64,000 nucleotides of DNA from Escherichia phage BUCT632: the sequence record PQ488502.1; one strand, 5' to 3'. Numbering within the stretch: the stretch's first letter is position 1; every line of letters starts with the position of its first letter. A model generated the notes under the pieces. It was not told the DNA's origin, did no database searches, and saw only the letters and a program-made list of their open reading frames with translations. This document shows, piece after piece, positions 14,212-38,635 of this stretch. The translations under genes were made by a program, and so were the position numbers.

Positions 14212-14752
14212 AAAGTTACCTAGCCAAGAAAGATTAAAAGAATTATTAATCTATGATCCAGATACCGGTATATTTACTAATAAGGTAAGTCGTGGTAGGG
14301 GAGGAAAAGCAGGTTCACCCGCTGGATACCTAAGAAAAGATGGCTATATAACTATTAAGATAGATAAAATAGATTATTTAGCACATAGACTAGCCTTTCT
14401 ATACATGACAGGATCAATACCAGATTTAATAGACCACAAAAATAGGATTAGGTCAGATAATAGGTGGATAAACCTAAGAGAAGCTACAAGCCAGTCTAAT
14501 AATAGAAACTGTACCGCATCGAGTAAATCTGGATATCTAGGTGTACACTGGAACAAACAATTGCAGAAATGGCAAGTACAGGTGATTGATAATAATGGTA
14601 AAAATATTTACGGGGGTGTTTTTGACTACTTAGACCTAGAAAGTGCGGTCATAAAGGCTAATGAACTAAGAAAAACACTTCATGGTAGCGAAGCTGTTAT
14701 AGAAGATTTCTATACCAACTATTACCCACCAATAGAGGAACTTAATAAGTGA
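14204..14752 (+). CDS. HNH homing endonuclease-like protein
   Basis: HNH-like motif DHKNRIRSDNRWINLREAT plus AP2-like segment YLGVHWNK. Confidence 0.7.
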   Translation: MNKKLPSQERLKELLIYDPDTGIFTNKVSRGRGGKAGSPAGYLRKDGYITIKIDKIDYLAHRLAFLYMTGSIPDLIDHKNRIRSDNRWINLREATSQSNNRNCTASSKSGYLGVHWNKQLQKWQVQVIDNNGKNIYGGVFDYLDLESAVIKANELRKTLHGSEAVIEDFYTNYYPPIEELNK

Positions 14753-20066: not shown

Positions 20067-20289
20067 ATATTCATAAATTAGGGAACAGCGAGCCGATTAC
20101 GCTGAGTGCAGAATCCCAACCGGAGCGCATTGAATAGAGTCGGTGGGTTAGTTGTAAAACTAGTACACAGGGGGCGGCAATCCCGGTTAGTGGCTAGAAC
20201 GTGTAAAATGAGGCGTCTGAAACCTCTCCCCTAAACTCTTCTCTAATTTATAAATAGTGGGGTGTGGAAATCACTTATGTAGTAACACT

Positions 20290-20361
20290 GCCGTCCTAGT
20301 ATAATTGGTATTATCAAGCCGTAACTGGTGGAAGATGTAGGTTCGAATCCTACGGTCGGTA
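20290..20361 (+). ncRNA. tRNA-like element (aberrant anticodon arm)
   Basis: perfect T arm GTAGG-TTCGAAT-CCTAC, D arm with AATTGGTA loop, acceptor with one mismatch; no canonical anticodon stem. Confidence 0.35.
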
Positions 20362-20863
20362 AGAACTGGATAACTGATGCTTTTAACGTAAAAGCTTCCG
20401 AGGTTAGTTGCGCACTGCCTAAACCACGCGGTAGTTGGTTCCAGACTAACCAACCAGTCTGCTGAATAGTTTTATTACGATTTAACTATGTCCAGGCTAA
20501 AGAAGAACTTTAGAAGGTATTCTAGGATAGTGAAGTTCTTTCTCCATATCGGAGTAGTTTTTCAAGCTATCCACAAAGTGGGAAATGCTGACATGAGAGA
20601 TGTCACTAATGGTGCACAATAGCACAGGTAATTCGCGATAACTCCTGTTGAGTAGCAGCAAAAGGCGGGAAGTCATGACCCCAAGCCTAACCGAGTCCTC
20701 AATATACCGCAGGATATAACCACTAAGTCACCCTGACTTAAACTGGAAAATAATAGACGTTACCGTATTTTGTCTTGAAATACTTAATGAGTGAGACTTA
20801 TGACTCTCCCGGTATCGTCTGTATTTTTAAGAGTTTTTACGAGAGTTCTTAAAAATACTTAAA

Positions 20864-24573: not shown

Positions 24574-24648
24574 GGTTCTCAAGCTCATATGGTATGAGCA
24601 CCCGGCTCATAACCGGAAGGTACGTAGGTTCGAATCCTCGGGGAGCCA
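24574..24648 (+). tRNA. tRNA-Met(CAT), initiator-like
   Basis: anticodon loop CTCATAA; three G:C pairs next to loop; weak T stem; CCA encoded. Confidence 0.65.
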
Positions 24649-29134: not shown

Positions 29135-29210
29135 TAGATCGCTAGCTCAATAGGTTTAGTAGCATCCGACTTTTAATCGGAAGGTTCTGGGTTCGAGTCC
29201 CAGGCGATCT
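29135..29210 (+). tRNA. tRNA-Lys(TTT)
   Basis: acceptor AGATCGC/GCGATCT, anticodon arm TCCGA-CTTTTAA-TCGGA, T-loop TTCGAGT, CCA encoded. Confidence 0.75.
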
Positions 29211-29232
29211 ACCAATTTCAAGAAAAACGCAG

Positions 29233-29261
29233 TTGCTTGATGCTTAATTTCTTGTTATAAT
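29233..29261 (+). promoter_or_regulatory. T5-type early promoter cassette without ORF
   Basis: TTGCTT-17-TATAAT; cassette RBS GAGGAG lies in hairpin GATGAGGA-GAAA-TCCTCATC and no ATG follows. Confidence 0.55.
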
Positions 29262-29284
29262 ATTTATATAAATTGATGAGGAGA

Positions 29285-29499
29285 AATCCTCATCATAGTT
29301 CACTAAGGTATTAGCTCGACCTAGGACTGGCTGCCAAAAAGCACGATCCCCATGATTCGGGAGAAGTTCTAGATTGGTCCACTAGATTCAGCGGCAACTG
29401 AATAGTGTATTGGGTTTGCGAGATGACGCAGTTCCTTCCGCTCGAAGCGAAGGTGCTGTAGTTACGCCGAGCTAATAGCCTTAGTAAACTAAAGAATTT
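29285..29499 (+). ncRNA. putative structured leader/noncoding RNA upstream of tRNA-Ala
   Basis: ~215 nt promoter-proximal, no plus-strand ORF, several hairpins (e.g. TTCAGCGGCAACTGAA, CCTTCCGCTCGAAGCGAAGG). Confidence 0.3.
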
Positions 29500-29575
29500 G
29501 GGGAATGGGTCTGCATGGAGTGGACACCTCGCTTGCACCGAGGACATCAGAACGGTTCGATTCCGTTATTCTCCA
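29500..29575 (+). tRNA. tRNA-Ala(TGC)
   Basis: acceptor GGGGAAT/ATTCTCC, D arm GTCT/GGAC, anticodon arm CCTCG-CTTGCAC-CGAGG, T-loop TTCGATT, CCA encoded. Confidence 0.75.
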
Positions 29576-29583
29576 CCAAATAC

Positions 29584-29657
29584 GCGTGATTGATGGAATT
29601 GGCATACATACCGTCCTTAGAAGTCGGGTTTTGAGGGTTCGAATCCCTTGTCACGCA
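29584..29657 (+). tRNA. tRNA-Leu(TAG), short variable arm
   Basis: acceptor GCGTGAT/GTCACGC, anticodon loop CTTAGAA, T-loop TTCGAAT, CCA encoded. Confidence 0.6.
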
Positions 29658-29691
29658 CCAAATTTGATGGTCAGAGTAAATTAAACCTACT

Positions 29692-29736
29692 ATCTCGGTT
29701 GAGCTGTTTTAATGGGTTCGAATCCCAGCGAGGCGT
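29692..29736 (+). ncRNA. tRNA minihelix-like element (acceptor + T arm only)
   Basis: T arm TGGG-TTCGAAT-CCCA flanked by partly complementary TCTCGGT / AGCGAGG; no D or anticodon arm. Confidence 0.2.
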
Positions 29737-29772
29737 AACTGCCTGGTGTGATAGAGGCATCATCTTATTATT

Positions 29773-29860
29773 GGAAGAGCAAATCGAATTGGCGACGAAA
29801 ACCGCTTGGAAAGTGGCTGACTGGTAAAACGGCTTGAGAGTTCAAATCTCTCCTCTTCCG
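29773..29860 (+). tRNA. tRNA-Ser(GGA)
   Basis: acceptor GGAAGAG/CTCTTCC, anticodon loop TTGGAAA, 18-nt variable arm, T-loop TTCAAAT, CCA encoded. Confidence 0.7.
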
Positions 29861-29882
29861 CCAAACACTTGAGGTAATAATA

Positions 29883-30230
29883 ATGCTAGCAAAAGATAAA
29901 GCTCTAGAGTTTTTAGCATCTTTAGATGAAGATAAGATTATAGATGCTGCTGAAAAAGCTGGAATGCCAGATTTAACATATCTGGAACGTGCTATTATTG
30001 CTCGTGATAAACTACAGAAAGAGTTTGCTATTGCTCAGGAGGAGTTTTATACTCGCTATAACGCTCTTACTAAGCAAATTGAAAATGAGTGTTCTCATAC
30101 TTGGGGAGTAACAGAAAACCTAGGTAATGATCACGATGGCTGGTCTAAAGTAAAAATTACCTACTACCATCGTAGGACTTGTAAAATTTGTGGAAAAGTA
30201 GAAAACTTCACTAGTACGAGTGACTATTAG
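29883..30230 (+). CDS. hypothetical protein
   Basis: 115 aa ORF with C-terminal CxxC. Confidence 0.5.
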   Translation: MLAKDKALEFLASLDEDKIIDAAEKAGMPDLTYLERAIIARDKLQKEFAIAQEEFYTRYNALTKQIENECSHTWGVTENLGNDHDGWSKVKITYYHRRTCKICGKVENFTSTSDY

Positions 30231-30243
30231 TATAATAAATACT

Positions 30244-30330
30244 AGAAGATAGGACGTAGTGGTATGTAACTGGTCTTGAAAACCAGCCCGCTGTAGTGAT
30301 ACGGTGATGGTTCGACTCCATTATCTTCTG
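30244..30330 (+). tRNA. tRNA-Ser(TGA)
   Basis: acceptor AGAAGAT/ATCTTCT, anticodon arm CTGGT-CTTGAAA-ACCAG, 19-nt variable arm, T-loop TTCGACT, CCA encoded. Confidence 0.75.
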
Positions 30331-30353
30331 CCAATTAACTATAAGGAAATCTT

Positions 30354-30527
30354 ATGAGCAAAACAGTTACTGTAACAATGAAGGATGGTAAAAAATTTAA
30401 AGCATGTCTTCATGAAACAGATAAGGGATGGATGGCTTATTTGCCACACCTAGATTCCACCGGGTACGGAATGACCCAACGTGAAGCTATTGTTGATGCT
30501 TTAAATGAGGCTTCTGCTGGTTTATAA
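30354..30527 (+). CDS. hypothetical small protein
   Basis: 57 aa ORF after AAGGAAA RBS. Confidence 0.4.
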   Translation: MSKTVTVTMKDGKKFKACLHETDKGWMAYLPHLDSTGYGMTQREAIVDALNEASAGL

Positions 30528-30541
30528 AAATTCTTGAAGTA

Positions 30542-30666
30542 TGCCGGAATTGGTAGACGGGGCTGCCTAAAAGGTTTATAGAGAACATCCACTCTCTACA
30601 ACATACCTCATAAAGCGGCTGAGATAAATGGTCTATCTCGTGAAGGTTCAAGTCCTTCTGCTTCTT
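30542..30666 (+). ncRNA. tRNA-like RNA with Leu-type D arm and distal T arm
   Basis: D-arm signature CCGGAATTGGTAGACGG and T arm GAAGG-TTCAAGT-CCTTC ~100 nt apart; internal hairpins; no complementary acceptor found. Confidence 0.25.
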
Positions 30667-30782
30667 GATACATCTATGGCTCAAAGTGTAACGGTGCTAT
30701 TTGATGCTCTTAGTAAGACTTCCCCGACATGCGTTCGGGAGTAAGCTGCTAAGGCTAGAGTAGAAGAGTTTCTGAGAGCCGC

Positions 30783-30895
30783 CACAATTGAAAATTCGTA
30801 CTCGTCTTGAGCTGCGTGCAATAGGAGATAACTTGATTAGTATTCTAGAACATGCTAATTGAGGAAGGTTTCGCTAACCCTGCGAGTTTTCAATT
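30783..30895 (+). repeat. 13-bp inverted repeat pair abutting the tRNA-His 5' end
   Basis: CCACAATTGAAAA (30783-30795) is the exact reverse complement of TTTTCAATTGTGG (30883-30895). Confidence 0.6.
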
Positions 30896-30969
30896 GTGGC
30901 TATATTATAATTGGTTAATGATCCTGATTGTGAATCAGGCCTATGTGGATTCGAATTCCACTAGCCACC
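30896..30969 (+). tRNA. tRNA-His(GTG)
   Basis: acceptor GTGGCTA/TAGCCAC, discriminator C, anticodon arm CCTGA-TTGTGAA-TCAGG, T-loop TTCGAAT, CCA encoded. Confidence 0.8.
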
Positions 30970-30997
30970 CCAAATTAACTTAAATAGGAAATAAAAT

Positions 30998-31198
30998 ATG
31001 GCTGATTTCTGCAAACAATGCTCTATTGATATGTGGGGTAAAGATACTGGTGATCTTTCTGGTTTGATTACAGAAGCTGAAGTTAAAGAAGGTTACGGTG
31101 CTGTTGTGCTTTGCGAGGGATGCGGAGTTATTCGTGTAGATCATGAAGGCAAACGTCTAGAAGAACCAGAACCAATAGCCACGGTTCCTGTAGAGTAA
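30998..31198 (+). CDS. zinc-ribbon small protein
   Basis: 66 aa with CKQC...CEGC pairs. Confidence 0.5.
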   Translation: MADFCKQCSIDMWGKDTGDLSGLITEAEVKEGYGAVVLCEGCGVIRVDHEGKRLEEPEPIATVPVE

Positions 31199-31206
31199 AG
31201 AATTAT

Positions 31207-31279
31207 TGGAGTGTAGATCAATTGGCAGATCGTCGGCCTCTGACTCCGAAGGTTCCTGGTTCGATCCCAGGCACTCCAG
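31207..31279 (+). tRNA. tRNA-Gln(CTG)
   Basis: acceptor TGGAGTG/CACTCCA, D arm GATC/GATC, anticodon loop CTCTGAC, T-loop TTCGATC, CCA encoded. Confidence 0.7.
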
Positions 31280-31288
31280 CCAAACAAT

Positions 31289-31361
31289 TGGAGAGTAGTG
31301 TAACGGTTAGCACAACGGCCTTTGACCCCGTTAATGGTAGGTTCGATTCCTCCTTCTCCAG
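31289..31361 (+). tRNA. tRNA-Gln(TTG)
   Basis: acceptor TGGAGAG/TTCTCCA, anticodon loop CTTTGAC, T-loop TTCGATT, CCA encoded. Confidence 0.65.
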
Positions 31362-31372
31362 CCAAATAATAA

Positions 31373-31452
31373 GCGGTTAAGCACACGGGTTGTGTCGCAG
31401 GCCTTCCAAGCCTCGCTGAGTAGGGTTCGATTCCCTCTAGCCGCTCCAACTT
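31373..31452 (+). tRNA. tRNA-Gly(TCC)
   Basis: acceptor GCGGTTA/TAGCCGC, anticodon arm AGGC-CTTCCAA-GCCT, T-loop TTCGATT, CCA encoded. Confidence 0.6.
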
Positions 31453-31464
31453 TAAGGAAACATT

Positions 31465-31716
31465 ATGCACGTTTTTGAGTTTCGTAATAAAAGTACCGAT
31501 AAACGAGTTATTGTTATTGGAGAAACATACCGAGCATACGAACAAACTGACGGCTCTGTTATCCTGAATGATGAGAAAGGAGGTTTTAGCTTTTATCCAG
31601 AAGAACCTTATGAAGAGTTTCGAAAACAATTTAACCTAGACTGGAGAAAGCATTTAAACACTGTTGCTTCATCCGTAGTATTGCCAACTACCAGTACTGT
31701 ACTCTCTAATGGCTGA
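31465..31716 (+). CDS. hypothetical protein
   Basis: 83 aa ORF. Confidence 0.5.
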   Translation: MHVFEFRNKSTDKRVIVIGETYRAYEQTDGSVILNDEKGGFSFYPEEPYEEFRKQFNLDWRKHLNTVASSVVLPTTSTVLSNG

Positions 31717-31873
31717 TAACCTAAAAGTCAAGATCGATAAACAAAAGAAACGTGTAGAAGTAGAGATTGGTGAAGAACGTGTAGCCTTCACCTTTGAATT
31801 TCTACAACAAATGGCAATGACAGTTATGACTGACAAGTCTCTTGTTATTGAAAAAGAAATCCCGTTGAAATAA
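31709..31873 (+). CDS. hypothetical small protein
   Basis: 54 aa ORF overlapping upstream stop. Confidence 0.3.
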   Translation: MADNLKVKIDKQKKRVEVEIGEERVAFTFEFLQQMAMTVMTDKSLVIEKEIPLK

Positions 31874-31882
31874 CGGGTTTTT
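31857..31882 (+). terminator. rho-independent terminator
   Basis: CCCGTT-GAAATA-ACGGG hairpin plus TTTTT. Confidence 0.55.
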
Positions 31883-31954
31883 GCTCCTAAAGCATTGTTG
31901 GCGATGCAGTTGCCTTGTAAGCATCTGAACCGGGTTCGATTCCTGGTGGGAGCA
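31883..31954 (+). tRNA. tRNA-Thr(TGT)
   Basis: acceptor GCTCCTA/TGGGAGC, D arm GCAT/ATGC, anticodon loop CTTGTAA, T-loop TTCGATT, CCA encoded. Confidence 0.75.
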
Positions 31955-31972
31955 CCAAATTTAAAAATTCAT

Positions 31973-32001
31973 TTGCTTTCTCTCTTATTTCTTGTTATAA
32001 T
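31973..32001 (+). promoter_or_regulatory. T5-type early promoter cassette
   Basis: AAAAATTCATTTGCTT..17..TATAAT. Confidence 0.6.
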
Positions 32002-32031
32002 ACTTGTATAAATTAACGAGAGGGAAACCAA

Positions 32032-32325
32032 ATGAAACGTTATCTTTCTGTTATGTTCCAAACTGGTGGTCAACGCTATACCTATGAATTTCCTAGCTCT
32101 TGGAAAATCAAAGAAGGTGATCAAGTAGTTGTACTAACACCGCGTGATGGGTACAAGGTAGTAACGGTTAAGCAAGTCTTTCCAAAAGATTATACGCCAT
32201 CTAAGTCTATTAATTATAAGATGATTCATGGTGTAGTTCGTCAAGTACCCCGAGTGGACATCGAGGTCAAAGTAGATAAAGATGGTAAACTTAAATATAC
32301 CTCTTGCTTAGACGAGTTGCTATAA
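32032..32325 (+). CDS. hypothetical protein
   Basis: 97 aa ORF after cassette RBS. Confidence 0.5.
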   Translation: MKRYLSVMFQTGGQRYTYEFPSSWKIKEGDQVVVLTPRDGYKVVTVKQVFPKDYTPSKSINYKMIHGVVRQVPRVDIEVKVDKDGKLKYTSCLDELL

Positions 32326-32531
32326 TGAGAATTACTTTCACAGAAAAGATTATGGGTGATGGTGTTATGATCATTACCGCATGGGATGGTAATCAGTGGT
32401 GTAGTGTTTCAGGTATTAAGCCTGAAGAACAAACACTAGAAAATATCTCAAAGATTAAGCGAAGAATGGCAGAACGTGCACGACTTCCAGGTGCGCCTAG
32501 AAATGGTAAACGTTCTGCAATTAAATGTTAA
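32325..32531 (+). CDS. hypothetical protein
   Basis: ORF starting MRITFTEK, start overlapping upstream stop. Confidence 0.45.
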   Translation: MRITFTEKIMGDGVMIITAWDGNQWCSVSGIKPEEQTLENISKIKRRMAERARLPGAPRNGKRSAIKC

Positions 32532-32532
32532 T

Positions 32533-32606
32533 GCTTCGGTAGCTTAGCGATCTAAAGCACTCGGCTGATAACCGAGAGATCGGGGGTTTAAATCCCTCCC
32601 GGAGTA
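32533..32606 (+). tRNA. tRNA-Ile(GAT)
   Basis: acceptor GCTTCGG/CCGGAGT, D arm GCTT/AAGC, anticodon arm CTCGG-CTGATAA-CCGAG, unusual T-loop TTTAAAT, CCA encoded. Confidence 0.7.
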
Positions 32607-32705
32607 CCAAATTTAGGAATTAAGACTATGCGTCCAGGAAAGTTTAAAAAAGCTAATTGGTCTAAAGAGTATAAAGAATACTTACTTAGTCTAATAAAAC
32701 ATAAT

Positions 32706-32778
32706 AGTTAGTTGGCAGAGTGGTTATGCACCTCCTTCATACGGAGCGACTACAGTGGTTCAAATCCACTACTAACTA
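32706..32778 (+). tRNA. tRNA(CAT) Met or Ile2
   Basis: acceptor AGTTAGT/ACTAACT, anticodon loop TTCATAC, T-loop TTCAAAT, CCA encoded. Confidence 0.65.
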
Positions 32779-32818
32779 CCATTAAAATAGCTAGAGATAG
32801 CTAAATTTAGGAGCAGCT

Positions 32819-33013
32819 ATGTTAACAATTAAAATAATGTCAGCCAAGAATGGGGAACAGATTCATACAGGCAAAAGTGTAAGCTTTAATCCTAGAAATA
32901 AAAGATTGGCTATAGTTGGAGTAGATCAAGCCATCTTTTTAAAAGAAGATGAAGTAGCATATGTCATGAACCAAACTGGTAAGACAGTTTCCGTATACTA
33001 TGGAAAAGTATAA
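32819..33013 (+). CDS. hypothetical protein
   Basis: 64 aa ORF. Confidence 0.45.
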   Translation: MLTIKIMSAKNGEQIHTGKSVSFNPRNKRLAIVGVDQAIFLKEDEVAYVMNQTGKTVSVYYGKV

Positions 33014-33055
33014 AGAATAAATAGCTGAGCCAAATTCTAACATCGGGGAGATCTA

Positions 33056-33424
33056 ATGAAAGCATATCAAAATCTTAAATCTGGCGTAATTAACCTTGTT
33101 CATGAAAATCAGATTATTCAGCTATACTCCGACAATGGTGAACTTAAACAGAAAGTTCTAGTTGAAGATCTAGAAGGTATCACACCACAATTCGATCCCG
33201 AAGCCTTCCGTGAAGTCAAAGTGGAAGTCGCTCCTCAAATCGAAGGTGGTCAGCACCTAAATGTCAATGTATTAAGCCGTGATCAGCTTTTGGATGCGCA
33301 GAAACATCCTGAAAAATATCCTCAGCTGACAATCCGTGTCTCTGGCTATGCTGTTCGATTTAATGCATTGACGCGTGAACAACAGAACGACGTTATTAGT
33401 CGTACATTTACTCAGGCGATGTAA
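33056..33424 (+). CDS. hypothetical protein
   Basis: 122 aa ORF. Confidence 0.5.
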
Positions 33425-33505
33425 TGGGGTTTGGATACGGTTTCTCCGAACTACGCAAGGTAGTCGAGCAAACTCCATTTATCTCCCAAGTTTTAGGAGA
33501 AATGT

Positions 33506-33811
33506 GTGGATCGAGCATTAAGACGCCATCACCGGCAACGTGTGAAAAACAACCGCAAGAAGTATTGGACAGTCTTCCCACATGAAGAAAGTCCCAAGCG
33601 GTTAGGTATTGTCACTACTACTCCTTGCATCTGTTCTTGCTGGATGTGTGGGAACCCTCGCAAGTATTATAAGAATAGTAAAGCAGGCATGAAAACCTCG
33701 GAGATCCGGAAAATGGAAGCGATGATTGCGGACATCACCTATACTGGTGGTATTTCAAATGATGAATTTGATGGCTTCGTAGCGTTCGAAGATGAACGCC
33801 CCGATCTGTAA
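33506..33811 (+). CDS. Cys-cluster small protein
   Basis: 101 aa with CICSCWMCGNP motif. Confidence 0.5.
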   Translation: MDRALRRHHRQRVKNNRKKYWTVFPHEESPKRLGIVTTTPCICSCWMCGNPRKYYKNSKAGMKTSEIRKMEAMIADITYTGGISNDEFDGFVAFEDERPDL

Positions 33812-33820
33812 TTAATAACA

Positions 33821-33858
33821 AACCCCAGCTATTGAATAAGTAGTCTGGGGTTTTTCTG
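33821..33858 (+). terminator. rho-independent terminator
   Basis: AACCCCAG...CTGGGGTT hairpin plus TTTTCTG. Confidence 0.6.
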
Positions 33859-33932
33859 TATAAAGGTACATAATATATGTATAATAAAATCCATCCACAT
33901 TAGGTTAACTTAAAAGACTTAATGGAGGTAAT

Positions 33933-34280
33933 ATGAGCCGTACTTATCGTAGACAATCTGGGGATCAGTGGTGGAAGTCTAAAGAACAATTCTCTCAAGA
34001 ATATTCTTTCCTCAAAGAAAATGGCTACTGGATTCGTGTTATTTATGCTAAATCCTGGGATGATGTAGAGCAGGAAATGAAGGAAGCAACCATTCGTAAT
34101 GAGAAAAAGGATGGTTATAACTGGAATTCTATTAGTAAGAATGTTAAGTGGCATTCTAATAAAATGGTTCGTCAAGGGAATCGTCAAGAACTCCACCGCG
34201 TGATGAAAGATCCAGAAAATTATGACTATAATCGCGATCATGACATGCGTAAGCGTGGATTATGGTGGTGCTATGACTAA
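33933..34280 (+). CDS. hypothetical protein
   Basis: 115 aa Trp-rich basic ORF. Confidence 0.5.
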   Translation: MSRTYRRQSGDQWWKSKEQFSQEYSFLKENGYWIRVIYAKSWDDVEQEMKEATIRNEKKDGYNWNSISKNVKWHSNKMVRQGNRQELHRVMKDPENYDYNRDHDMRKRGLWWCYD

Positions 34281-34297
34281 TTTCTGAAATAATTCAT

Positions 34298-34326
34298 TTG
34301 CTAAACCTCTCTTTTCTTGCTATAAT
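34298..34326 (+). promoter_or_regulatory. T5-type early promoter cassette
   Basis: AATAATTCATTTGCTA..17..TATAAT. Confidence 0.6.
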
Positions 34327-34356
34327 ATGTTTATAAATTGATGAGAGAGGTTTGAA

Positions 34357-34638
34357 ATGAAAACTCGTCTAGACTGTGCTGTTCATGTTCTTGAACATGA
34401 TGTTGCAGGAACCTGTATGTCTTACCACGAAGCAGGTCGTTTAATTAAAGAACGTGTGGCAGATGTGTGCGGATTGAAGATTACTGCTGAGGAAGCTGAT
34501 GATCTTTTAGGCCAAGCACTGGAGAAAACCGAAATGTTTCTCTGCGATTCTTGTTCTTGGTGGTGTGAAGCTCACGAACGTTCTTTCAACGATTATGATG
34601 TATGTCGTGACTGTAGTGGGGAGGATGAAGATGAATAA
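34357..34638 (+). CDS. Cys-rich acidic small protein
   Basis: 93 aa with CDSCSWWC and CRDCSG motifs. Confidence 0.5.
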   Translation: MKTRLDCAVHVLEHDVAGTCMSYHEAGRLIKERVADVCGLKITAEEADDLLGQALEKTEMFLCDSCSWWCEAHERSFNDYDVCRDCSGEDEDE

Positions 34639-34930
34639 GTTTATTATTGCACTGGTGATCTCCGCAGTTAGTTTCGGTTCTCTGGCGTCTACCAAAGTTT
34701 CTATGAAAAATGGCAGTGTTAAAGTCCAACAGAACGGCATTATTACCGAGTATGGTAAAGTTCGTGATGTTAAGGAACGTAATGGTAAAGTAGAAATATA
34801 TACTAATAAAAACTTCTCTACTCCAGCCGTTACTATTAGCAAACGCGGTGAAATAACCACTCAACGTACTAATAGCTCCAGTTCTTTTACTTGTCGTTAT
34901 GATTGCGACTTTGAAGGTGAAGATGAATAA
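34630..34930 (+). CDS. secreted small protein
   Basis: signal-peptide-like N-terminus MNKFIIALVISAVSFGSLAS. Confidence 0.5.
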
Positions 34931-35318
34931 TTTAGACCCTAGAATTAAATTTGCAATTACAGAAATCCAAGATCAAATTGATGAGGATTTCACTGTTTGG
35001 TCAAGGTCTGGTAATGGAGAATATTGCCAGCTTTATAGTATGAAAATGGGTATCTCAATTGAGCTTAATATCAACTCTGAAGGTAAAGTAGAAGCCCAAC
35101 CCATGTTCAGTATTCCAGGCTTCTCTGGATTTGTTGAAGGTATAAAACTATGCCTACCAAATAACCATCTTCATCGAGTTATTTGTCAGTTAGAGACTAT
35201 TAAGCATTTCTTGCCAGAGGGTAACATTAATGACTACTACCATGAAGTTGTAGCAGCTCATATGATGAAAGAACGCAAACGTCGGAGAGAAGAACGTGAA
35301 AAGACTAAACATCAATAG
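34923..35318 (+). CDS. hypothetical protein
   Basis: ORF starting MNNLDPRIKF. Confidence 0.45.
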   Translation: MNNLDPRIKFAITEIQDQIDEDFTVWSRSGNGEYCQLYSMKMGISIELNINSEGKVEAQPMFSIPGFSGFVEGIKLCLPNNHLHRVICQLETIKHFLPEGNINDYYHEVVAAHMMKERKRRREEREKTKHQ

Positions 35319-35592
35319 CACAGTGCAGATTCCAGCAACTAAGGATGTTTTAACATTCCTACGTAGTGAGAATACCCAGTTTTGGCATGACTATATTCAG
35401 GAAAATAAAAATAATCCAGATATAGTTGCCTTTGCAAAAAAACGTATCGAAGAATATAAAGATCCAGAGATTAAAGATGGGATGATCACTATGCAATTGT
35501 GGGTAGCCATGAATACGTTTGGCCCTACTATGAGTCTAGGAGTTACTCCACTGTTTACTAATATTCTAATTAATGAAAAGGATCTGAAATGA
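35296..35592 (+). CDS. hypothetical protein
   Basis: 98 aa ORF. Confidence 0.45.
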   Translation: MKRLNINSTVQIPATKDVLTFLRSENTQFWHDYIQENKNNPDIVAFAKKRIEEYKDPEIKDGMITMQLWVAMNTFGPTMSLGVTPLFTNILINEKDLK

Positions 35593-35873
35593 TTATCTCT
35601 CCATTTGCTCTTTGGTTCGTCATTGGATCTATAGTAGCTATTTACAGCTTGGTTGATGATCTGTATATTTCTAAGAATAAAGATGTAATATTATACGTTA
35701 TACATAAAACTCGACCGTTAGATCTGCCTCCTCTTGATGATAAAACATTACTCAGATGTGCTAGATCTATGATATTTATTGTAGATATTCTTCTAGGCCC
35801 AACATCTGTGTTTTTCTTTTATAGAAAGACTCGTAATATGAAAAAATTTAAAGCTGAAATGCAGAATACCTAA
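35589..35873 (+). CDS. hypothetical membrane protein
   Basis: 94 aa with hydrophobic N-terminus. Confidence 0.45.
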   Translation: MIISPFALWFVIGSIVAIYSLVDDLYISKNKDVILYVIHKTRPLDLPPLDDKTLLRCARSMIFIVDILLGPTSVFFFYRKTRNMKKFKAEMQNT

Positions 35874-35983
35874 AGAACTCGCGTAGGACCGAGTTGCGTC
35901 ACCTGCAACTGTTACGGATAAGGGAGTCGTGCCCCTTAGTGCGGTAAGTGGTGAGGTGGCTGCTAGCCATAACTGGAGATAAT

Positions 35984-36328
35984 ATGACTATATTACTAAT
36001 TCTTGTTACAACTTGGTTTTTAATCGGTGCTGTATATGCGATAGCTATTATTAGACATTTGGACGAATATTCTGCTGAATGGTTTATTAAGTATCTACGT
36101 ATTGATGATCAAGAACAGAAGTTTAAAGATGAAAAGCAGAAAAAAGCAGTAAATAATATGACAGCCAAAGAATGCTTGTTCTACATGCGTATTGTAGGGT
36201 TCTTTGGACTATTAGTTGCTGGCCCAATTGGTTCTACCATTGCTCCATATAAAGAAACAGTTGCTGACATCAAATTGTGGAGAAATGCAGGGGTACTACG
36301 CAAAGCTAGAGAAACTAATATTACATAA
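35984..36328 (+). CDS. hypothetical membrane protein
   Basis: ORF starting MTILLILVTTWFLIGAVYAIAII, two predicted TM segments. Confidence 0.45.
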   Translation: MTILLILVTTWFLIGAVYAIAIIRHLDEYSAEWFIKYLRIDDQEQKFKDEKQKKAVNNMTAKECLFYMRIVGFFGLLVAGPIGSTIAPYKETVADIKLWRNAGVLRKARETNIT

Positions 36329-36372
36329 GATTGATGCTAAATCAACTTACTAGCAAAAGCAAATAATGACAA

Positions 36373-36409
36373 AGCCCAGCCTGCACTTTTGCGACTGGGC
36401 TATTTTTAT
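36373..36409 (+). terminator. rho-independent terminator
   Basis: GCCCAG...CTGGGC hairpin plus TATTTTTAT. Confidence 0.55.
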
Positions 36410-36423
36410 AATAAAATTTTAGT

Positions 36424-36451
36424 TGCTTAGATGCCCAAACTTTTGTATAAT
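36424..36451 (+). promoter_or_regulatory. T5-type early promoter cassette
   Basis: TTGCTT-17-TATAAT. Confidence 0.55.
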
Positions 36452-36482
36452 ATGTTTATAGATTGAGGCAAGAGGATTAAAT

Positions 36483-37181
36483 ATGAGGATTATTTCTAAG
36501 TTCGCCGATGTGTATGATTTGCAGAACAGTTTGTTCGACCCAGATCGTGTGTGGGAACGTAAAACTGAGGAGTTGCTGGTTAAAGTAACTGATGATGCAG
36601 AAAAGAACATTGTGCATACTCGCCAGGTATTTCGTGATGGTTCACTATCCTTCCGTGGTGATTTCGAATATTTTGTAAACCCACTATTTGTTGCAGGTGA
36701 AGTTTACTGGTTGCACGAGCTGTACTGCTGGCATCCGGCATTTAGCTTCAAAACGTTCAACCTAGACACTATGTTCGATAAAATGGAAGAGATGGGATTG
36801 CATGCCCGCTCTTATTTAATGGATAAGAGTCGCGGAGATGTTCGTGAAACAATGCGTGATTTGCTCGCTGAAGCAAAACCTAAAGCAGAACGTATCTTAT
36901 CCGAACTGCGTGTACCGATTGCATATGTGAAAGGTATTAAAAAGAACGATAACGATGATGTTCGTAACTTCGTGATTCAGACTAACATTCGTTTCCATCA
37001 GTCAGGTATTCCGTGGCAGGAAATTGAAAGTAACTTATACCGTTTACACCAAGTTCTCGAACAGTATATCTTCGGTGTACTAGGAACTGGTGAGCCTGAT
37101 ATGATTAAAGTATCAGATAAAGACAGGTTAGCAGCGCATGGATTTGATACAAAAACTTCTTTCAGGAATATGGCACGGTAA
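36483..37181 (+). CDS. hypothetical protein
   Basis: 232 aa ORF. Confidence 0.55.
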   Translation: MRIISKFADVYDLQNSLFDPDRVWERKTEELLVKVTDDAEKNIVHTRQVFRDGSLSFRGDFEYFVNPLFVAGEVYWLHELYCWHPAFSFKTFNLDTMFDKMEEMGLHARSYLMDKSRGDVRETMRDLLAEAKPKAERILSELRVPIAYVKGIKKNDNDDVRNFVIQTNIRFHQSGIPWQEIESNLYRLHQVLEQYIFGVLGTGEPDMIKVSDKDRLAAHGFDTKTSFRNMAR

Positions 37182-37587
37182 GTGGTATATCCTGGGAGCA
37201 GGTCTAGCGATAGGCATCGGGTTCGGTGCTTATCACTTAGTAAATAAAGTGGAGACTTTGGCGGGAGATCTTGCGGTAGCTACTAAAAAGATTTCTTCTC
37301 TAGAGACTTCCCTTAACAAGGTGAAAGCTGAAAGCGAACTTCGTGAGACTAGAATGAATCAGTATTTCACGATGAATAATATTTCTCAAGCAGATCTAGA
37401 TAAGAAAATTAGTCAGCTTGATAAAGCACTTAGTCGTCAAGACATTATAGCTGCAAAGCCTAGATTGGTAACATTAATTGCTAAAAAGCAGGGTAAGGAG
37501 TTCGAGGAAAGATTAGCATGTTTAACTGGAAACTTGGAATACTGCTCGCAGCCGCAATCACAATCACAGGCTGTGCACAAGAAATAA
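37138..37587 (+). CDS. hypothetical membrane-anchored coiled-coil protein
   Basis: 149 aa, N-terminal TM helix; start uncertain. Confidence 0.45.
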   Translation: MDLIQKLLSGIWHGKWYILGAGLAIGIGFGAYHLVNKVETLAGDLAVATKKISSLETSLNKVKAESELRETRMNQYFTMNNISQADLDKKISQLDKALSRQDIIAAKPRLVTLIAKKQGKEFEERLACLTGNLEYCSQPQSQSQAVHKK

Positions 37588-37871
37588 AGACAGAATCTAC
37601 ACATGAGCTACCAACAGCTCATGTAGACTGGCCCAAAGGACTTCAACCTTGTAGCTTTGACTTTAAGTTTGAAAAGAAATTAGCTACAAATGGAGAAGAT
37701 GGCGTAGTAGTTGTTGTACCATATAAAGACTGGAATATGTTGGCAAAATGCCGTGAGGCAGAATATTCCTATATTTCACGACTGACTGGTATGGTTTGCT
37801 TCTATCGCCAAGATTTACAAGAAAAACGTTGCTTAGTTTACTATCCACCAATTAACAATAGGAAAGATTAA
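37518..37871 (+). CDS. putative lipoprotein
   Basis: signal peptide with lipobox-like ITGCAQE. Confidence 0.5.
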   Translation: MFNWKLGILLAAAITITGCAQEIKTESTHELPTAHVDWPKGLQPCSFDFKFEKKLATNGEDGVVVVVPYKDWNMLAKCREAEYSYISRLTGMVCFYRQDLQEKRCLVYYPPINNRKD

Positions 37872-38623
37872 TGTCAGTATTAGTCGGTTTACATGGTGAA
37901 GCTGGTTCGGGAAAAGATACTGTTGCAAAATTAATTATCGATTGGTGTAATGACACGTATCCAACGTGTTTACCCCGTCGTTACAGTTTTGCTAAGCCCG
38001 TTTATGAACTTGCATCCGTAATCCTCGGTGTAACTCCAGAGTTTCTAGGAGAGCGCAGGGGAAAAGAGGTTGACCAATGGTTTACAGTCACACAATCTCA
38101 ATTGGAGCGAGCCAGAGATGTGTGGTTTAAGTACGGTATCGATAAGTTTGAAGACTTCTCGTACGTTTGGCCTATTTTTGAGGAAAAATATCTTAATCCT
38201 CAACAACTTATCTCAGAGAATAAAGAAGACGGACTTTATAGTTTATTTATTTCTCCGAGAAAAATGTTACAGCTCGTAGGGACAGAGCTAGGAAGGCAGC
38301 TGGTGCATGAACGCATTTGGCTCATAATTCTGGAGCAATCCATCGCTAAAGACGACCCAGATGTCGCCGTAATAACAGATGTTAGATTCCCCAATGAAGG
38401 AGAGCTACTCAGAGAAACAAACCATTTAGATATGGATTCTTTGATAGTAAATGTAGTACCCGCTGAGCAGAAGTTCACTATTAAATCAGATCATCCATCT
38501 GAAAGTGGTATTCCTGCAAAATATATTACTCACGAATTAGTTAATAAATTCGATGGTATCAATAACCTTAAACTAGAAGTTTATAACTTCTGTGACTTAG
38601 AGCTAGAACCACTAGTAGGATAA
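37871..38623 (+). CDS. deoxynucleoside monophosphate kinase-like P-loop protein
   Basis: N-terminal Walker A GLHGEAGSGKDT; 250 aa. Confidence 0.6.
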   Translation: MSVLVGLHGEAGSGKDTVAKLIIDWCNDTYPTCLPRRYSFAKPVYELASVILGVTPEFLGERRGKEVDQWFTVTQSQLERARDVWFKYGIDKFEDFSYVWPIFEEKYLNPQQLISENKEDGLYSLFISPRKMLQLVGTELGRQLVHERIWLIILEQSIAKDDPDVAVITDVRFPNEGELLRETNHLDMDSLIVNVVPAEQKFTIKSDHPSESGIPAKYITHELVNKFDGINNLKLEVYNFCDLELEPLVG

Positions 38624-38635
38624 TCAAGGATCGCT

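What the first reader, a model, noticed from the sequence alone, without database searches (positions are those of the whole stretch)
29222..29499. Promoter cassette whose ribosome-binding site is locked in a hairpin, followed by a ~215-nt ORF-less leader before tRNA-Ala
Elsewhere the repeated promoter cassette ends ATAAATTGATGAGAGAGG...ATG and starts a small gene. Here the RBS-like GAGGAG is immediately followed by its complement (GATGAGGA-GAAA-TCCTCATC), no start codon follows, and ~215 nt of hairpin-rich sequence lead into tRNA-Ala. It looks like a cassette converted from mRNA to a structured leader or noncoding RNA.
Basis: seen in the sequence. Interest (0 to 1): 0.55.

Follow-up and report, generated by a model that had tools for sequence, protein, structure and literature searches.

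The report
Phage T5 "RNA 2H" gene
This stretch is the gene for a small non-coding RNA already annotated in phage T5 as "RNA 2H, function unknown"; comparison across T5-like phages shows a conserved fold locked by two pseudoknots that matches no described RNA family.

Summary
Window 29233-29261 is a T5-type early promoter. A 9-bp hairpin (29274-29295) holds the Shine-Dalgarno-like GAGGAG. About 195 nt without a conserved ORF (29296-29490) follow, ending 9 nt before tRNA-Ala.

It is not new as an object. The window is a T5-like phage. In the reference T5 and BF23 records the same slot, between promoter P13b and tRNA-Ala, is annotated misc_RNA "rna2H, stable RNA with unknown functions".

What I add:
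- The RNA has homologues in five Demerecviridae groups: Markadamsvirinae, Sugarlandvirus, Shenzhenvirus, Novosibvirus and Myunavirus.
- Covariation supports a fold different from the minimum-energy one. A 22-bp terminal helix carries a conserved one-base bulge. One single strand pairs with the loops of two adjacent hairpins, giving two pseudoknots. Two peripheral arms are swapped modularly.
- It matches no Rfam family, is not tRNA-like, and does not match the T4 rnaC/rnaD region.
- T5 deletion mutants that lack it are viable.

Most likely it is a stand-alone, abundant, stable, trans-acting RNA cut out of an RNA-tRNA precursor. Its target is unknown. The hairpin-locked ribosome-binding site is a peripheral, lineage-specific feature.

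The parts
29233..29261 (+). Sigma-70 early promoter: -35 TTGCTT, 17-nt spacer, -10 TATAAT. Orthologue of T5 promoter P13b.
   Evidence: Sequence. T5 and BF23 annotate 'promoter P13b' at the aligned position. Cassette alignment A1. The simple scan missed it because TTGCTT matches only 3 of 6 bases of TTGACA.
29268..29273 (+). Probable transcript start (A29268) and short unpaired 5' end, AUAAAU.
   Evidence: Inference from the spacing in T5 promoter PN25 (my own knowledge). Not mapped here.
29274..29295 (+). 5' hairpin UGAUGAGGA-GAAA-UCCUCAUCA that buries the Shine-Dalgarno-like GAGGAG. Specific to the T5 clade.
   Evidence: -13.2 kcal/mol. Kept as a hairpin through changes in stem and loop (GGGGA, UUUC loop, OSYSP variant). 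Replaced by a different, larger structured 5' module (121-nt leader) in L007-L010 and L017. Analogous hairpin in My1. Absent in the Eos, Klebsiella and Aeromonas phage versions.
29296..29490 (+). Conserved RNA 2H core of 195 nt. T5's annotated rna2H corresponds to 29309-29480.
   Evidence: Covariance models R1 and R2 score 232 and 212 bits on +, but only 32 bits (R1) and nothing above 7 bits (R2) on -. T5 annotation mapped through.
29297..29318 (+). P1 5' strand: P1a 29297-29308 and P1b 29309-29318. It pairs with 29468-29490.
   Evidence: 21 pairs, 99.9% of cells paired, 6 pairs with compensatory changes. The same layout (12 bp, bulge, 9-10 bp) is found in all six lineages.
29324..29328 (+). 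Pseudoknot 1, 5' strand GGACU. It pairs with the P4 loop 29376-29380 (GGUCC).
   Evidence: 5 pairs, 100% paired, 4 with changes on both sides. Variants: GAACC:GGUUC, GAGCC:GGCUC, GAGUC:GACUC, GACG:CGUC.
29332..29336 (+). Pseudoknot 2, 5' strand UGCC(A). It pairs with the P5 loop 29392-29396, (C)GGCA.
   Evidence: 3 of 5 pairs show changes on both sides. Variants: AAUCA:UGAUU, UUGC:GCAA, CGCCA:UGGCG, ACCA:UGGU.
29337..29344 (+). Conserved A-tract (29337-29340) and P2 5' strand GCAC (29341-29344), which pairs with GUGU 29405-29408.
   Evidence: P2 is 100% paired with one one-sided change. It reads UAC:GUA in Aeromonas phages. Weakly supported in the Proteus phage.
29345..29363 (+). Variable arm 1 (P3 hairpin).
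   Evidence: Replaced by unrelated longer hairpins in other phages. The basal pairs covary: CG to UA, and CG to GC.
29368..29386 (+). P4 hairpin UCUAG-AUUGGUCCA-CUAGA. Its loop carries the pseudoknot 1 partner.
   Evidence: Compensatory variants: UCUGAU/AUCAGA (L005), GCGG/CCGC (Eos), GCUGG/CCAGC (Aeromonas), CUGGA/UCCAG (My1).
29387..29402 (+). P5 hairpin UUCAG-CGGCAA-CUGAA. Its loop carries the pseudoknot 2 partner.
   Evidence: Variants: AAGG/CCUU, ACGC/GCGU, CUCUG/CAGAG, GGGU/ACCC. GGCA is constant in the loop while neighbouring loop bases vary.
29409..29417 (+). Conserved joining strand AUUGGGUUU between P2 and arm 2.
   Evidence: Alignments A3 and A4.
29418..29467 (+). Variable arm 2 (P6).
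   Evidence: Two allelic forms. 8 of 14 pairs show compensatory changes (helices 8 and 9). The type-2 loop UGGCUAAU is kept while its stem covaries.
29468..29490 (+). P1 3' strand with the conserved bulged G29478.
   Evidence: The bulge is G in five lineages and A in Aeromonas phages.
29491..29499 (+). 9-nt spacer AAAGAAUUU before tRNA-Ala. The RNase P cut at 29499/29500 would free the 3' side.
   Evidence: tRNA-Ala at 29500-29578. The spacer is 3-9 nt wherever a tRNA follows. RNase P cleavage is inferred from general tRNA biology.

Best explanation
The segment is the orthologue of the phage T5 gene rna2H. It is a stand-alone gene for an abundant, stable, compactly folded non-coding RNA, not an mRNA and not a mere tRNA leader.

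Host RNA polymerase starts at the strong early promoter P13b. In T5-clade phages the first 27 nt form a hairpin that buries the cassette's Shine-Dalgarno-like bases.

The next 195 nt fold on their own:
- A 22-bp helix (12 bp, one bulged base, 10 bp) joins the two ends.
- The strand that follows it pairs first with the loop of hairpin P4 and then with the loop of hairpin P5, making two pseudoknots.
- An A-tract and a short helix P2 close a junction.
- Two outer arms are free to vary.

RNase P cutting at tRNA-Ala frees the 3' side. RNase III probably also cuts the long helix at the bulge, which would give the 172-nt species annotated in T5.

I infer that the mature RNA acts in trans as a specific binding partner, scaffold or decoy for a protein or RNA. 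It would be an accessory factor that is not needed in laboratory hosts.

Status of each step:
- Shown: identity with rna2H, conservation, the fold, and absence of an ORF.
- Taken from annotation: that the RNA is stable.
- Inferred: the processing steps and the trans action.
For: Identity:
- The window is a T5-like phage.
- T5 and BF23 annotate misc_RNA rna2H, 'stable RNA with unknown functions', between promoter P13b and tRNA-Ala.
- The window differs from T5 at about 6 of 195 core positions.

Conservation:
- 420 phage records cover at least 80% of the element.
- 80 Klebsiella phage records carry their own version, as do 7 Aeromonas phage records.
- Covariance-model hits: Eos and Sugarlandvirus, Shenzhenvirus, Novosibvirus, Myunavirus.

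Fold:
- On 37 distinct sequences, 97.3% of cells pair, against 31-40% when partners are slid.
- 31 pairs have changes on both sides, against 1-8 when slid, and 0 of 500 shuffles reach that number.
- Pseudoknot 1 is 100% paired with 4 of 5 pairs covarying. Pseudoknot 2 has 3 of 5 covarying (all).
- Both pseudoknots hold in all six lineages.

Strand: the models score 212-239 bits on + against about 32 on -. Conserved G-U pairs would not pair on the other strand.

Stand-alone gene:
- It has its own promoter directly upstream in 5 of 6 lineages. In Klebsiella phages this holds even where tRNA-Gln and tRNA-Glu precede it.
- The downstream neighbour varies: tRNA-Ala, tRNA-Tyr, an unannotated tRNA, or a CDS. 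The downstream CDSs are unrelated to each other.
- Only one of the many promoters annotated in the tRNA region carries it.

No ORF is conserved.

Accessory role:
- T5Mos (deletion 30661-38625) and T5-123 (deletion 29191-32442) lack it and still form plaques (PMC11464382).
- One natural isolate has most of it deleted (L030).

RNase III idea: the ends annotated in T5 map to core positions 14 and 185. That is exactly the bulge boundary, with a staggered 3' overhang.
Against: - No transcript data were available here. 'Stable RNA' rests on a GenBank note whose experimental basis I could not read.
- No partner or target is known, and nothing computed here distinguishes trans action from a cis role at the head of the transcript.
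- Dispensability in the laboratory is also what a functionless element would show, although the covariation argues against that.
- The model found nothing in Vibrio phage pVp-1 between 10 and 60 kb, so the RNA is not universal in the family, or it is too diverged there.
- RNase III processing is inferred from annotated coordinates alone.
Confidence: 0.6

Rival explanations
1. Cis-acting head of the transcript. The folded domain would work only on its own RNA. It might protect the 5' end, organise RNase E, RNase III or RNase P processing of the tRNA precursor, or modify RNA polymerase as the HK022 put RNAs do so that it reads through the tRNA cluster.
For: It sits directly after a promoter in 5 of 6 lineages. 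Where a tRNA follows, it begins only 3-9 nt after P1. The 5' end is buried in a helix or hairpin.
Against: The other promoters of the tRNA region drive tRNA operons without such an element, and the window holds a single copy. The downstream neighbour is not conserved and can be a CDS. The Proteus phage copy has no obvious promoter next to it. A double-pseudoknot core with sequence-conserved loops is more than end protection needs. T5 and BF23 annotate it as a separate stable RNA.
Confidence: 0.2
2. A ligand-sensing or catalytic RNA: a riboswitch aptamer, or a self-cleaving or other ribozyme.
For: It has a compact double-pseudoknot architecture. An invariant A-tract and loop sequences sit in an otherwise covarying molecule. 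This is typical of aptamers and ribozymes.
Against: There is no expression platform: no terminator-like site on the + strand between the RNA and the tRNA. A Shine-Dalgarno sequence is not regularly sequestered downstream. No Rfam riboswitch or ribozyme model matches even at E = 10. No conserved cleavage-site context was identified.
Confidence: 0.08
3. A decayed gene start. The promoter cassette would have lost its ORF, and the sequence up to the tRNA would be a leftover leader without a function of its own.
For: The cassette is the same as the ones in front of small genes. The element is dispensable.
Against: Homologues in distant genera keep the fold through dozens of compensatory changes. 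The core is nearly invariant within the T5 clade while its arms are exchanged.
Confidence: 0.02
4. A small protein is encoded, from a non-ATG start or on the opposite strand. Some genome records call a 'hypothetical protein' here.
For: The window has a 21-codon TTG ORF on + and a 78-codon ATG ORF on -. Several GenBank records list a hypothetical protein under the match.
Against: T5, L002, L004, L013 and L021 have no ORF of at least 20 codons on either strand inside the RNA. Those present elsewhere differ in frame and sequence. Arm swaps change the length by 22-26 nt, and 1-nt indels occur.
Confidence: 0.02
5. A DNA-level element, such as a homing-endonuclease target, a recombination site or an origin, rather than an RNA.
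For: The tRNA region is full of HNH homing endonuclease genes. It is also mosaic: the RNA is about 97% identical to T5 while the adjacent tRNA-Ala is strongly diverged.
Against: Covariation keeps base pairs rather than sequence. It includes G-U pairs that exist on one strand only, and it includes pseudoknots. The models are strongly strand-specific.
Confidence: 0.02

Closest known systems
RNA 2H (gene rna2H) of phages T5 and BF23, a GenBank misc_RNA annotation
   Same: Same position between promoter P13b and tRNA-Ala, same strand relative to the tRNAs, about 97% identical to T5. It is the same gene.
   Different: Nothing of substance differs. The annotation covers core positions 14-185 (172 nt) and gives no structure, family or function.
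T4 small stable RNAs rnaC and rnaD (species 1 and 2 RNAs)
   Same: Phage-encoded stable RNAs of unknown function sitting in a tRNA gene cluster and co-transcribed with tRNAs.
   Different: The RNA 2H model finds nothing in the T4 tRNA region. The sizes differ: 139 and 119 nt. From my own knowledge, the T4 RNAs are processed like tRNAs. No tRNA-like feature is found here.
GOLLD and ROOL RNAs (large structured RNAs of phages and prophages, often next to tRNA genes)
   Same: Complex, pseudoknotted, phage-borne, tRNA-adjacent, function unknown (my own knowledge).
   Different: They are several times larger. Their Rfam models do not match. No sequence or architectural homology was seen.
Bacterial and phage Y RNAs (YrlA type) bound by Ro60/Rsr
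   Same: The 5' and 3' ends form a long helix with a conserved bulge and sequence-conserved pairs, a plausible protein-binding site. A structured module sits on top.
   Different: No Rfam Y RNA match. No tRNA-like module. From my own knowledge, E. coli K-12, a host of these phages, lacks Rsr.
HK022 put RNAs (promoter-proximal RNAs that make RNA polymerase resist terminators)
   Same: A folded RNA encoded immediately downstream of an early phage promoter.
   Different: put consists of two simple stem-loops of about 70 nt acting in cis (my own knowledge). Here there is one copy among many promoters, a far more complex fold, and annotation as a separate stable species.

Membership tests
T5/BF23 RNA 2H (rna2H) | Lies between early promoter P13b and tRNA-Ala(UGC), on the tRNA strand | tested here: met
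   Annotation of NC_005859 and NC_042564. Alignment of the window to T5. tRNA-Ala at 29500.
T5/BF23 RNA 2H (rna2H) | Sequence homology over the whole annotated RNA | tested here: met
   About 6 differences in 195 nt against T5. Models R1 and R2 score window and T5 alike, at 212-235 bits.
T5/BF23 RNA 2H (rna2H) | Accumulates as a stable RNA in infected cells | not testable with these tools
   Only the GenBank note says so. No paper describing it was found in the library.
Any Rfam 15 family | Match to a curated covariance model | tested here: not met
   Nothing in 29270-29499 at E <= 1 in a 14-kb scan. Only noise of at most 15 bits at E <= 10 when the 251 nt were scanned alone.
tRNA or tRNA-like RNA | Cloverleaf with T-arm and acceptor stem detectable by ARAGORN or the Rfam tRNA model | tested here: not met
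   No call in 29215-29499. The terminal helix is a continuous 22 bp.
T4 rnaC/rnaD stable RNAs | Homology to the T4 RNAs | tested here: not met
   R2 finds no match in T4 68000-76000, which holds rnaC and rnaD.
Riboswitch | Aptamer followed by an expression platform (terminator or sequestered ribosome-binding site) | tested here: not met
   No terminator-like site on the + strand between 29296 and 29500. The 3' strand of P1 runs almost directly into a tRNA.
Riboswitch | Binds a small ligand | not testable with these tools
   Needs in-line probing or a similar assay.
Small protein-coding gene | ORF conserved in frame among homologues | tested here: not met
   Arm-length differences that are not multiples of three, and 1-nt indels.
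RNase III-processed phage RNA | About two turns of double helix, cut with a 2-nt 3' stagger | tested here: inconclusive
   The helix of 12 bp, bulge and 9-10 bp is conserved in six lineages. The ends annotated in T5 fall at the bulge with a staggered overhang. Cleavage itself was not observed.
Y RNA (Ro60-binding) | Ro60 binding site in the terminal helix, plus the presence of Ro60/Rsr | not tested
   No Rfam Y RNA hit. Binding cannot be tested here.

The most novel reading that the evidence does not exclude
RNA 2H would found an undescribed class of double-pseudoknotted phage RNAs with a specific molecular activity. For example, it could be a decoy or inhibitor of a host nuclease or anti-phage system that acts on tRNA or RNA, or a small ribozyme. 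That would explain why T5-like phages keep it under their strongest promoters inside the tRNA cluster although it is dispensable in laboratory strains.
Probability: 0.2. Interest if true: 0.8.

Novelty: already known. Interest (0 to 1): 0.5.

Why it matters
T5 is a classical model phage, yet its annotated "stable RNAs with unknown functions" have stayed unexplained for two decades.

Three results turn RNA 2H from a vague annotation into a defined experimental object:
- It is conserved across at least five groups of T5-like phages.
- It has a covariation-proven double-pseudoknot fold.
- It belongs to no curated RNA family.

The work gives exact ends to map, specific pseudoknot pairs to break and restore, and existing viable deletion mutants (T5-123, T5Mos) to complement.

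Phage tRNA clusters are now known to counter host defences that cut tRNAs. An RNA kept in the same cluster is therefore a reasonable candidate for a further counter-defence or RNA-metabolism factor. The family also deserves an Rfam entry, so that genome annotators stop calling spurious "hypothetical proteins" over it.

Tried and rejected
1. The minimum-energy and RNAalifold helix CUAGGACU/AGUUCUAG is rejected. Variants in L005, Eos, Klebsiella and Aeromonas phages break it. They keep the P4 hairpin plus pseudoknot 1 instead.
2. Rfam scans found nothing.
3. Two 15-base scans of viral contigs returned mostly chance hits. Two degenerate patterns added only Aeromonas phage AhSzw-1 (L182) and two chance loci, L186 and L187.
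4. MAFFT and the R2-based alignment misplace the Aeromonas P5 region. The formal pair count therefore used the 38 enteric and Klebsiella sequences only. The other lineages were checked by hand-defined strands, which leans towards the proposed structure.
5. I looked for a conserved neighbouring protein. The upstream and downstream ORFs of the different lineages are unrelated.
6. BLAST against E. coli genomes and plasmids found no match.
7. The model found nothing in the T4 tRNA region or in Vibrio phage pVp-1.
8. Literature searches found no paper that describes RNA 2H. Only the PARIS paper was useful, for the deletion mutants.
9. A tRNA-like reading of AAGG..UAGCUCG was rejected, because the supposed D-stem pairs with the 3' end in one continuous helix.

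Full report
WHAT IS IN THE SEQUENCE

The window carries 22 tRNA genes on the + strand. Its best match is a T5-like phage, Escherichia phage Stokescottia, at 99.7%.

At the finding's coordinates I read the following:
- -35 TTGCTT (29233-29238), a 17-nt spacer, and -10 TATAAT (29256-29261).
- The hairpin GAUGAGGA-GAAA-UCCUCAUC (29275-29294).
- About 195 nt up to 29490.
- A 9-nt spacer, then tRNA-Ala at 29500.

The exact box TATAAATTGATGAG occurs four times in the window. In the other copies and in near-copies it leads into a purine-rich ribosome-binding site and an ATG. Here it does not.

The 230 nt after the promoter fold far better than shuffled controls: -85.7 kcal/mol, z = -5.95.

IT IS AN ANNOTATED T5 GENE

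The reference T5 record annotates, between 'promoter P13b' and tRNA-Ala, a misc_RNA 'rna2H: RNA2H, stable RNA with unknown functions'. The BF23 tRNA-region record does the same.

The window aligns to that T5 stretch with about 6 differences in the 195-nt core, although the adjacent tRNA-Ala is strongly diverged. The T5 feature corresponds to core positions 14-185, which is window 29309-29480.

I found no paper describing this RNA in the searchable library.

CONSERVATION

- 420 phage records cover at least 80% of the element.
- Within the T5 clade the core is almost invariant, while three parts are exchanged as modules. Arm 1 comes as hairpins of about 19, 41 or 44 nt. Arm 2 has two forms. The 5' hairpin is replaced in some phages by a much larger structured module, giving a 121-nt instead of a 27-nt leader.
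- A covariance model built from T5-clade sequences (R1) found diverged copies in Bacteriophage Eos and in a Klebsiella Sugarlandvirus, and in Aeromonas Shenzhenviruses.
- A second model (R2) found copies in a Proteus Novosibvirus and in Pectobacterium phage My1.
- It found nothing in Vibrio phage pVp-1 between 10 and 60 kb, in the T4 tRNA region, or a second time in the window.
- BLAST found nothing in E. coli genomes or plasmids.

THE FOLD

The minimum-energy model is partly wrong. Natural variants support the following layout:
1. P1 is a terminal helix of 12 bp, one bulged base on the 3' strand, then 9-10 bp. These lengths are the same in all six lineages although most pairs have changed.
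2. A single strand follows. Its bases GGACU pair with the loop of hairpin P4 (pseudoknot 1). Its bases UGCC(A) pair with the loop of the next hairpin, P5 (pseudoknot 2).
3. An A-tract follows.
4. A short helix P2 (GCAC:GUGU) encloses arm 1, P4 and P5.
5. A conserved joining strand and arm 2 complete the molecule.

I made a model-based alignment of 38 sequences (37 distinct), in which the pseudoknot strands were not part of the model. On it, 97.3% of cells pair, against 31-40% when partners are slid by 1-3 columns. 31 pairs show changes on both sides, against 1-8 when slid and a mean of 15.7 in shuffles; 0 of 500 shuffles reach 31.

Pseudoknot 1 is 100% paired, and 4 of its 5 pairs covary. Pseudoknot 2 has 3 covarying pairs.

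Across lineages pseudoknot 1 reads:
- GGACU:AGUCC
- GAACC:GGUUC
- GAGCC:GGCUC
- GAGUC:GACUC
- GAACU:GGUUC
- GACG:CGUC

Pseudoknot 2 reads:
- UGCC:GGCA
- AAUCA:UGAUU
- ACCA:UGGU
- UUGC:GCAA
- CGCCA:UGGCG
- UGCCA:UGGCG

Caveats on this evidence:
- The strands for the four non-enteric comparisons were defined by hand, which leans towards the structure.
- The sequences are related, so the shuffle control overstates significance.
- P2 is weak in the Proteus phage.
- The P5 register differs by one base in Klebsiella phages.

The structure is strand-specific. The models score 212-239 bits on + and about 32 on -, and several conserved pairs are G-U.

NOT A PROTEIN, NOT A KNOWN RNA FAMILY

No ORF of at least 20 codons is shared. 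T5 and several relatives have none inside the RNA on either strand. Length differences between variants are not multiples of three.

Rfam gives no match at E <= 1 in context and only noise at E <= 10 in isolation. ARAGORN and the tRNA model see nothing tRNA-like.

GENE OR LEADER?

In five of six lineages a T5-type promoter lies directly upstream. In Klebsiella phages this is true even where another promoter with tRNA-Gln and tRNA-Glu sits in front.

What follows the RNA varies:
- tRNA-Ala (T5, Eos, Klebsiella phages).
- tRNA-Tyr or another tRNA (Aeromonas phages).
- An unannotated tRNA (My1).
- A CDS (Proteus phage; Escherichia phage 26175I).

The CDSs are unrelated to each other.

Only one of the many promoters annotated in the tRNA region carries the element. 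There is no terminator-like site between the RNA and the tRNA.

Together with the annotation as a stable RNA, this favours an independent gene whose product is cut out of an RNA-tRNA precursor. It argues against a regulator of a particular downstream gene and against a general antitermination device.

Where a tRNA follows, it starts 3-9 nt after P1. RNase P would therefore define the 3' side. This is an inference from general tRNA biology.

The ends annotated in T5 fall exactly at the P1 bulge. The 5' end is the first base of the inner 10-bp helix, and the 3' end leaves the bulged G plus two bases. That is the stagger RNase III leaves on a two-turn helix. It suggests, but does not show, RNase III maturation.

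THE 5' HAIRPIN

It is conserved as a hairpin within the T5 clade through changes in stem and loop. It is missing in the Eos, Klebsiella and Aeromonas versions, where P1 begins about 7 nt after the -10 box. In some T5-like phages it is replaced by a larger module.

Phage My1 has a different hairpin at the same place that also buries an AGGAG. So do lineages that simply lack that sequence. On this reading, a ribosome-binding site from the standard promoter cassette is neutralised when the cassette drives a non-coding RNA.

An equally simple reading is that the hairpin protects the 5' end. In either case it is peripheral to the conserved RNA.

FUNCTION

The RNA is dispensable in the laboratory. 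T5-123 (deletion 29191-32442) and T5Mos (deletion 30661-38625) lack it and still plate (PMC11464382). One sequenced relative has an internal deletion between two GCTCGA repeats.

Several features point to a trans-acting RNA that binds a specific partner, with accessory, host-dependent value:
- Strong conservation of the fold.
- Invariant loop and joining sequences.
- A helix of fixed geometry with sequence-conserved pairs (AAGG:CCUU) beside a bulge.
- A dedicated strong promoter.

The partner is unknown.

Overall I give 0.6 to the composite explanation:
- About 0.95 for identity with RNA 2H and non-coding nature.
- About 0.85 for the double-pseudoknot fold.
- About 0.4 for trans action.

VERDICT

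The object is already annotated in T5 and BF23, so it is not a new discovery.

Its value lies in what is still open. It is a model-phage RNA with a well-supported complex fold, no family and no function, and viable deletion mutants are at hand.

Noticed in passing
window 29773-29863: This stretch reads as tRNA-Ser(GGA). It is identical to the stretch BF23 annotates as tRNA-Ser2 and homologous to T5 tRNA-Ser2. ARAGORN and the Rfam tRNA model both missed it.
   Followed up: partly
window 29661-29772: About 110 nt lie between tRNA-Leu and the missed tRNA-Ser. They contain a T-arm-like GGGTTCGAATCCC but no callable tRNA. T5 has the HNH endonuclease gene hegC at this place, and BF23 has the same 110 nt. 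Possibly a tRNA remnant.
   Followed up: no
L007:~466-567, and the same place in L008, L009, L010, L017: In some T5-like phages the 5' hairpin is replaced by a larger module that makes the leader 121 nt instead of 27 nt. The module has its own covarying long-range stem: GAUAUCAG/CUGAUAUC, or GAUACCAG/CUGGUAUC in L010. It also has motifs reminiscent of the RNA 2H core (GCUGCC, AAAAAG, UUAGUC). It may be a second structured RNA module.
   Followed up: partly
L030 (IMGVR_UViG_2706796640_000001): A T5-like genome in which most of RNA 2H is deleted between two GCTCGA repeats, leaving 69 nt.
   Followed up: no
window ~20100-20863: This is the region upstream of tRNA-Arg. It is equivalent to T5/BF23 'RNAX', a stable RNA of 719-784 nt with unknown function that sits behind promoter P16-17. 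Rfam sees a tRNA-like element inside it at 20290-20361, at 35.5 bits. It is a large unexplained RNA.
   Followed up: no
window 24574-24648, 30535-30666, 31372-31445: Rfam finds tRNA-type matches that ARAGORN did not call: 40.3 bits, and weaker ones at 25 and 30.9 bits. The middle one lies where T5 annotates the 'tRNA-like' stable RNA1 and RNAs I and III.
   Followed up: no
window 29490-29580 against T5: There is a sharp mosaic boundary. RNA 2H is about 97% identical to T5, but the tRNA-Ala that starts 9 nt later is heavily diverged.
   Followed up: no
L194 ~14270-14360, minus strand (Pectobacterium phage My1): A tRNA with a long variable arm and anticodon loop CUUAGAA follows the My1 copy of the RNA after 3 nt. 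It is not annotated in NC_018837.
   Followed up: no
L191:200-480 (Klebsiella phage K30lambda2.2): Two near-identical promoters stand in tandem. tRNA-Gln and tRNA-Glu lie between them, and the second promoter sits directly in front of the RNA.
   Followed up: partly
window 29274-29295 and 29347-29364, minus strand: On the opposite strand the 5' hairpin and arm 1 score as terminator-like sites, a stem followed by a T-run. They could stop antisense transcription, or this may be coincidence.
   Followed up: no
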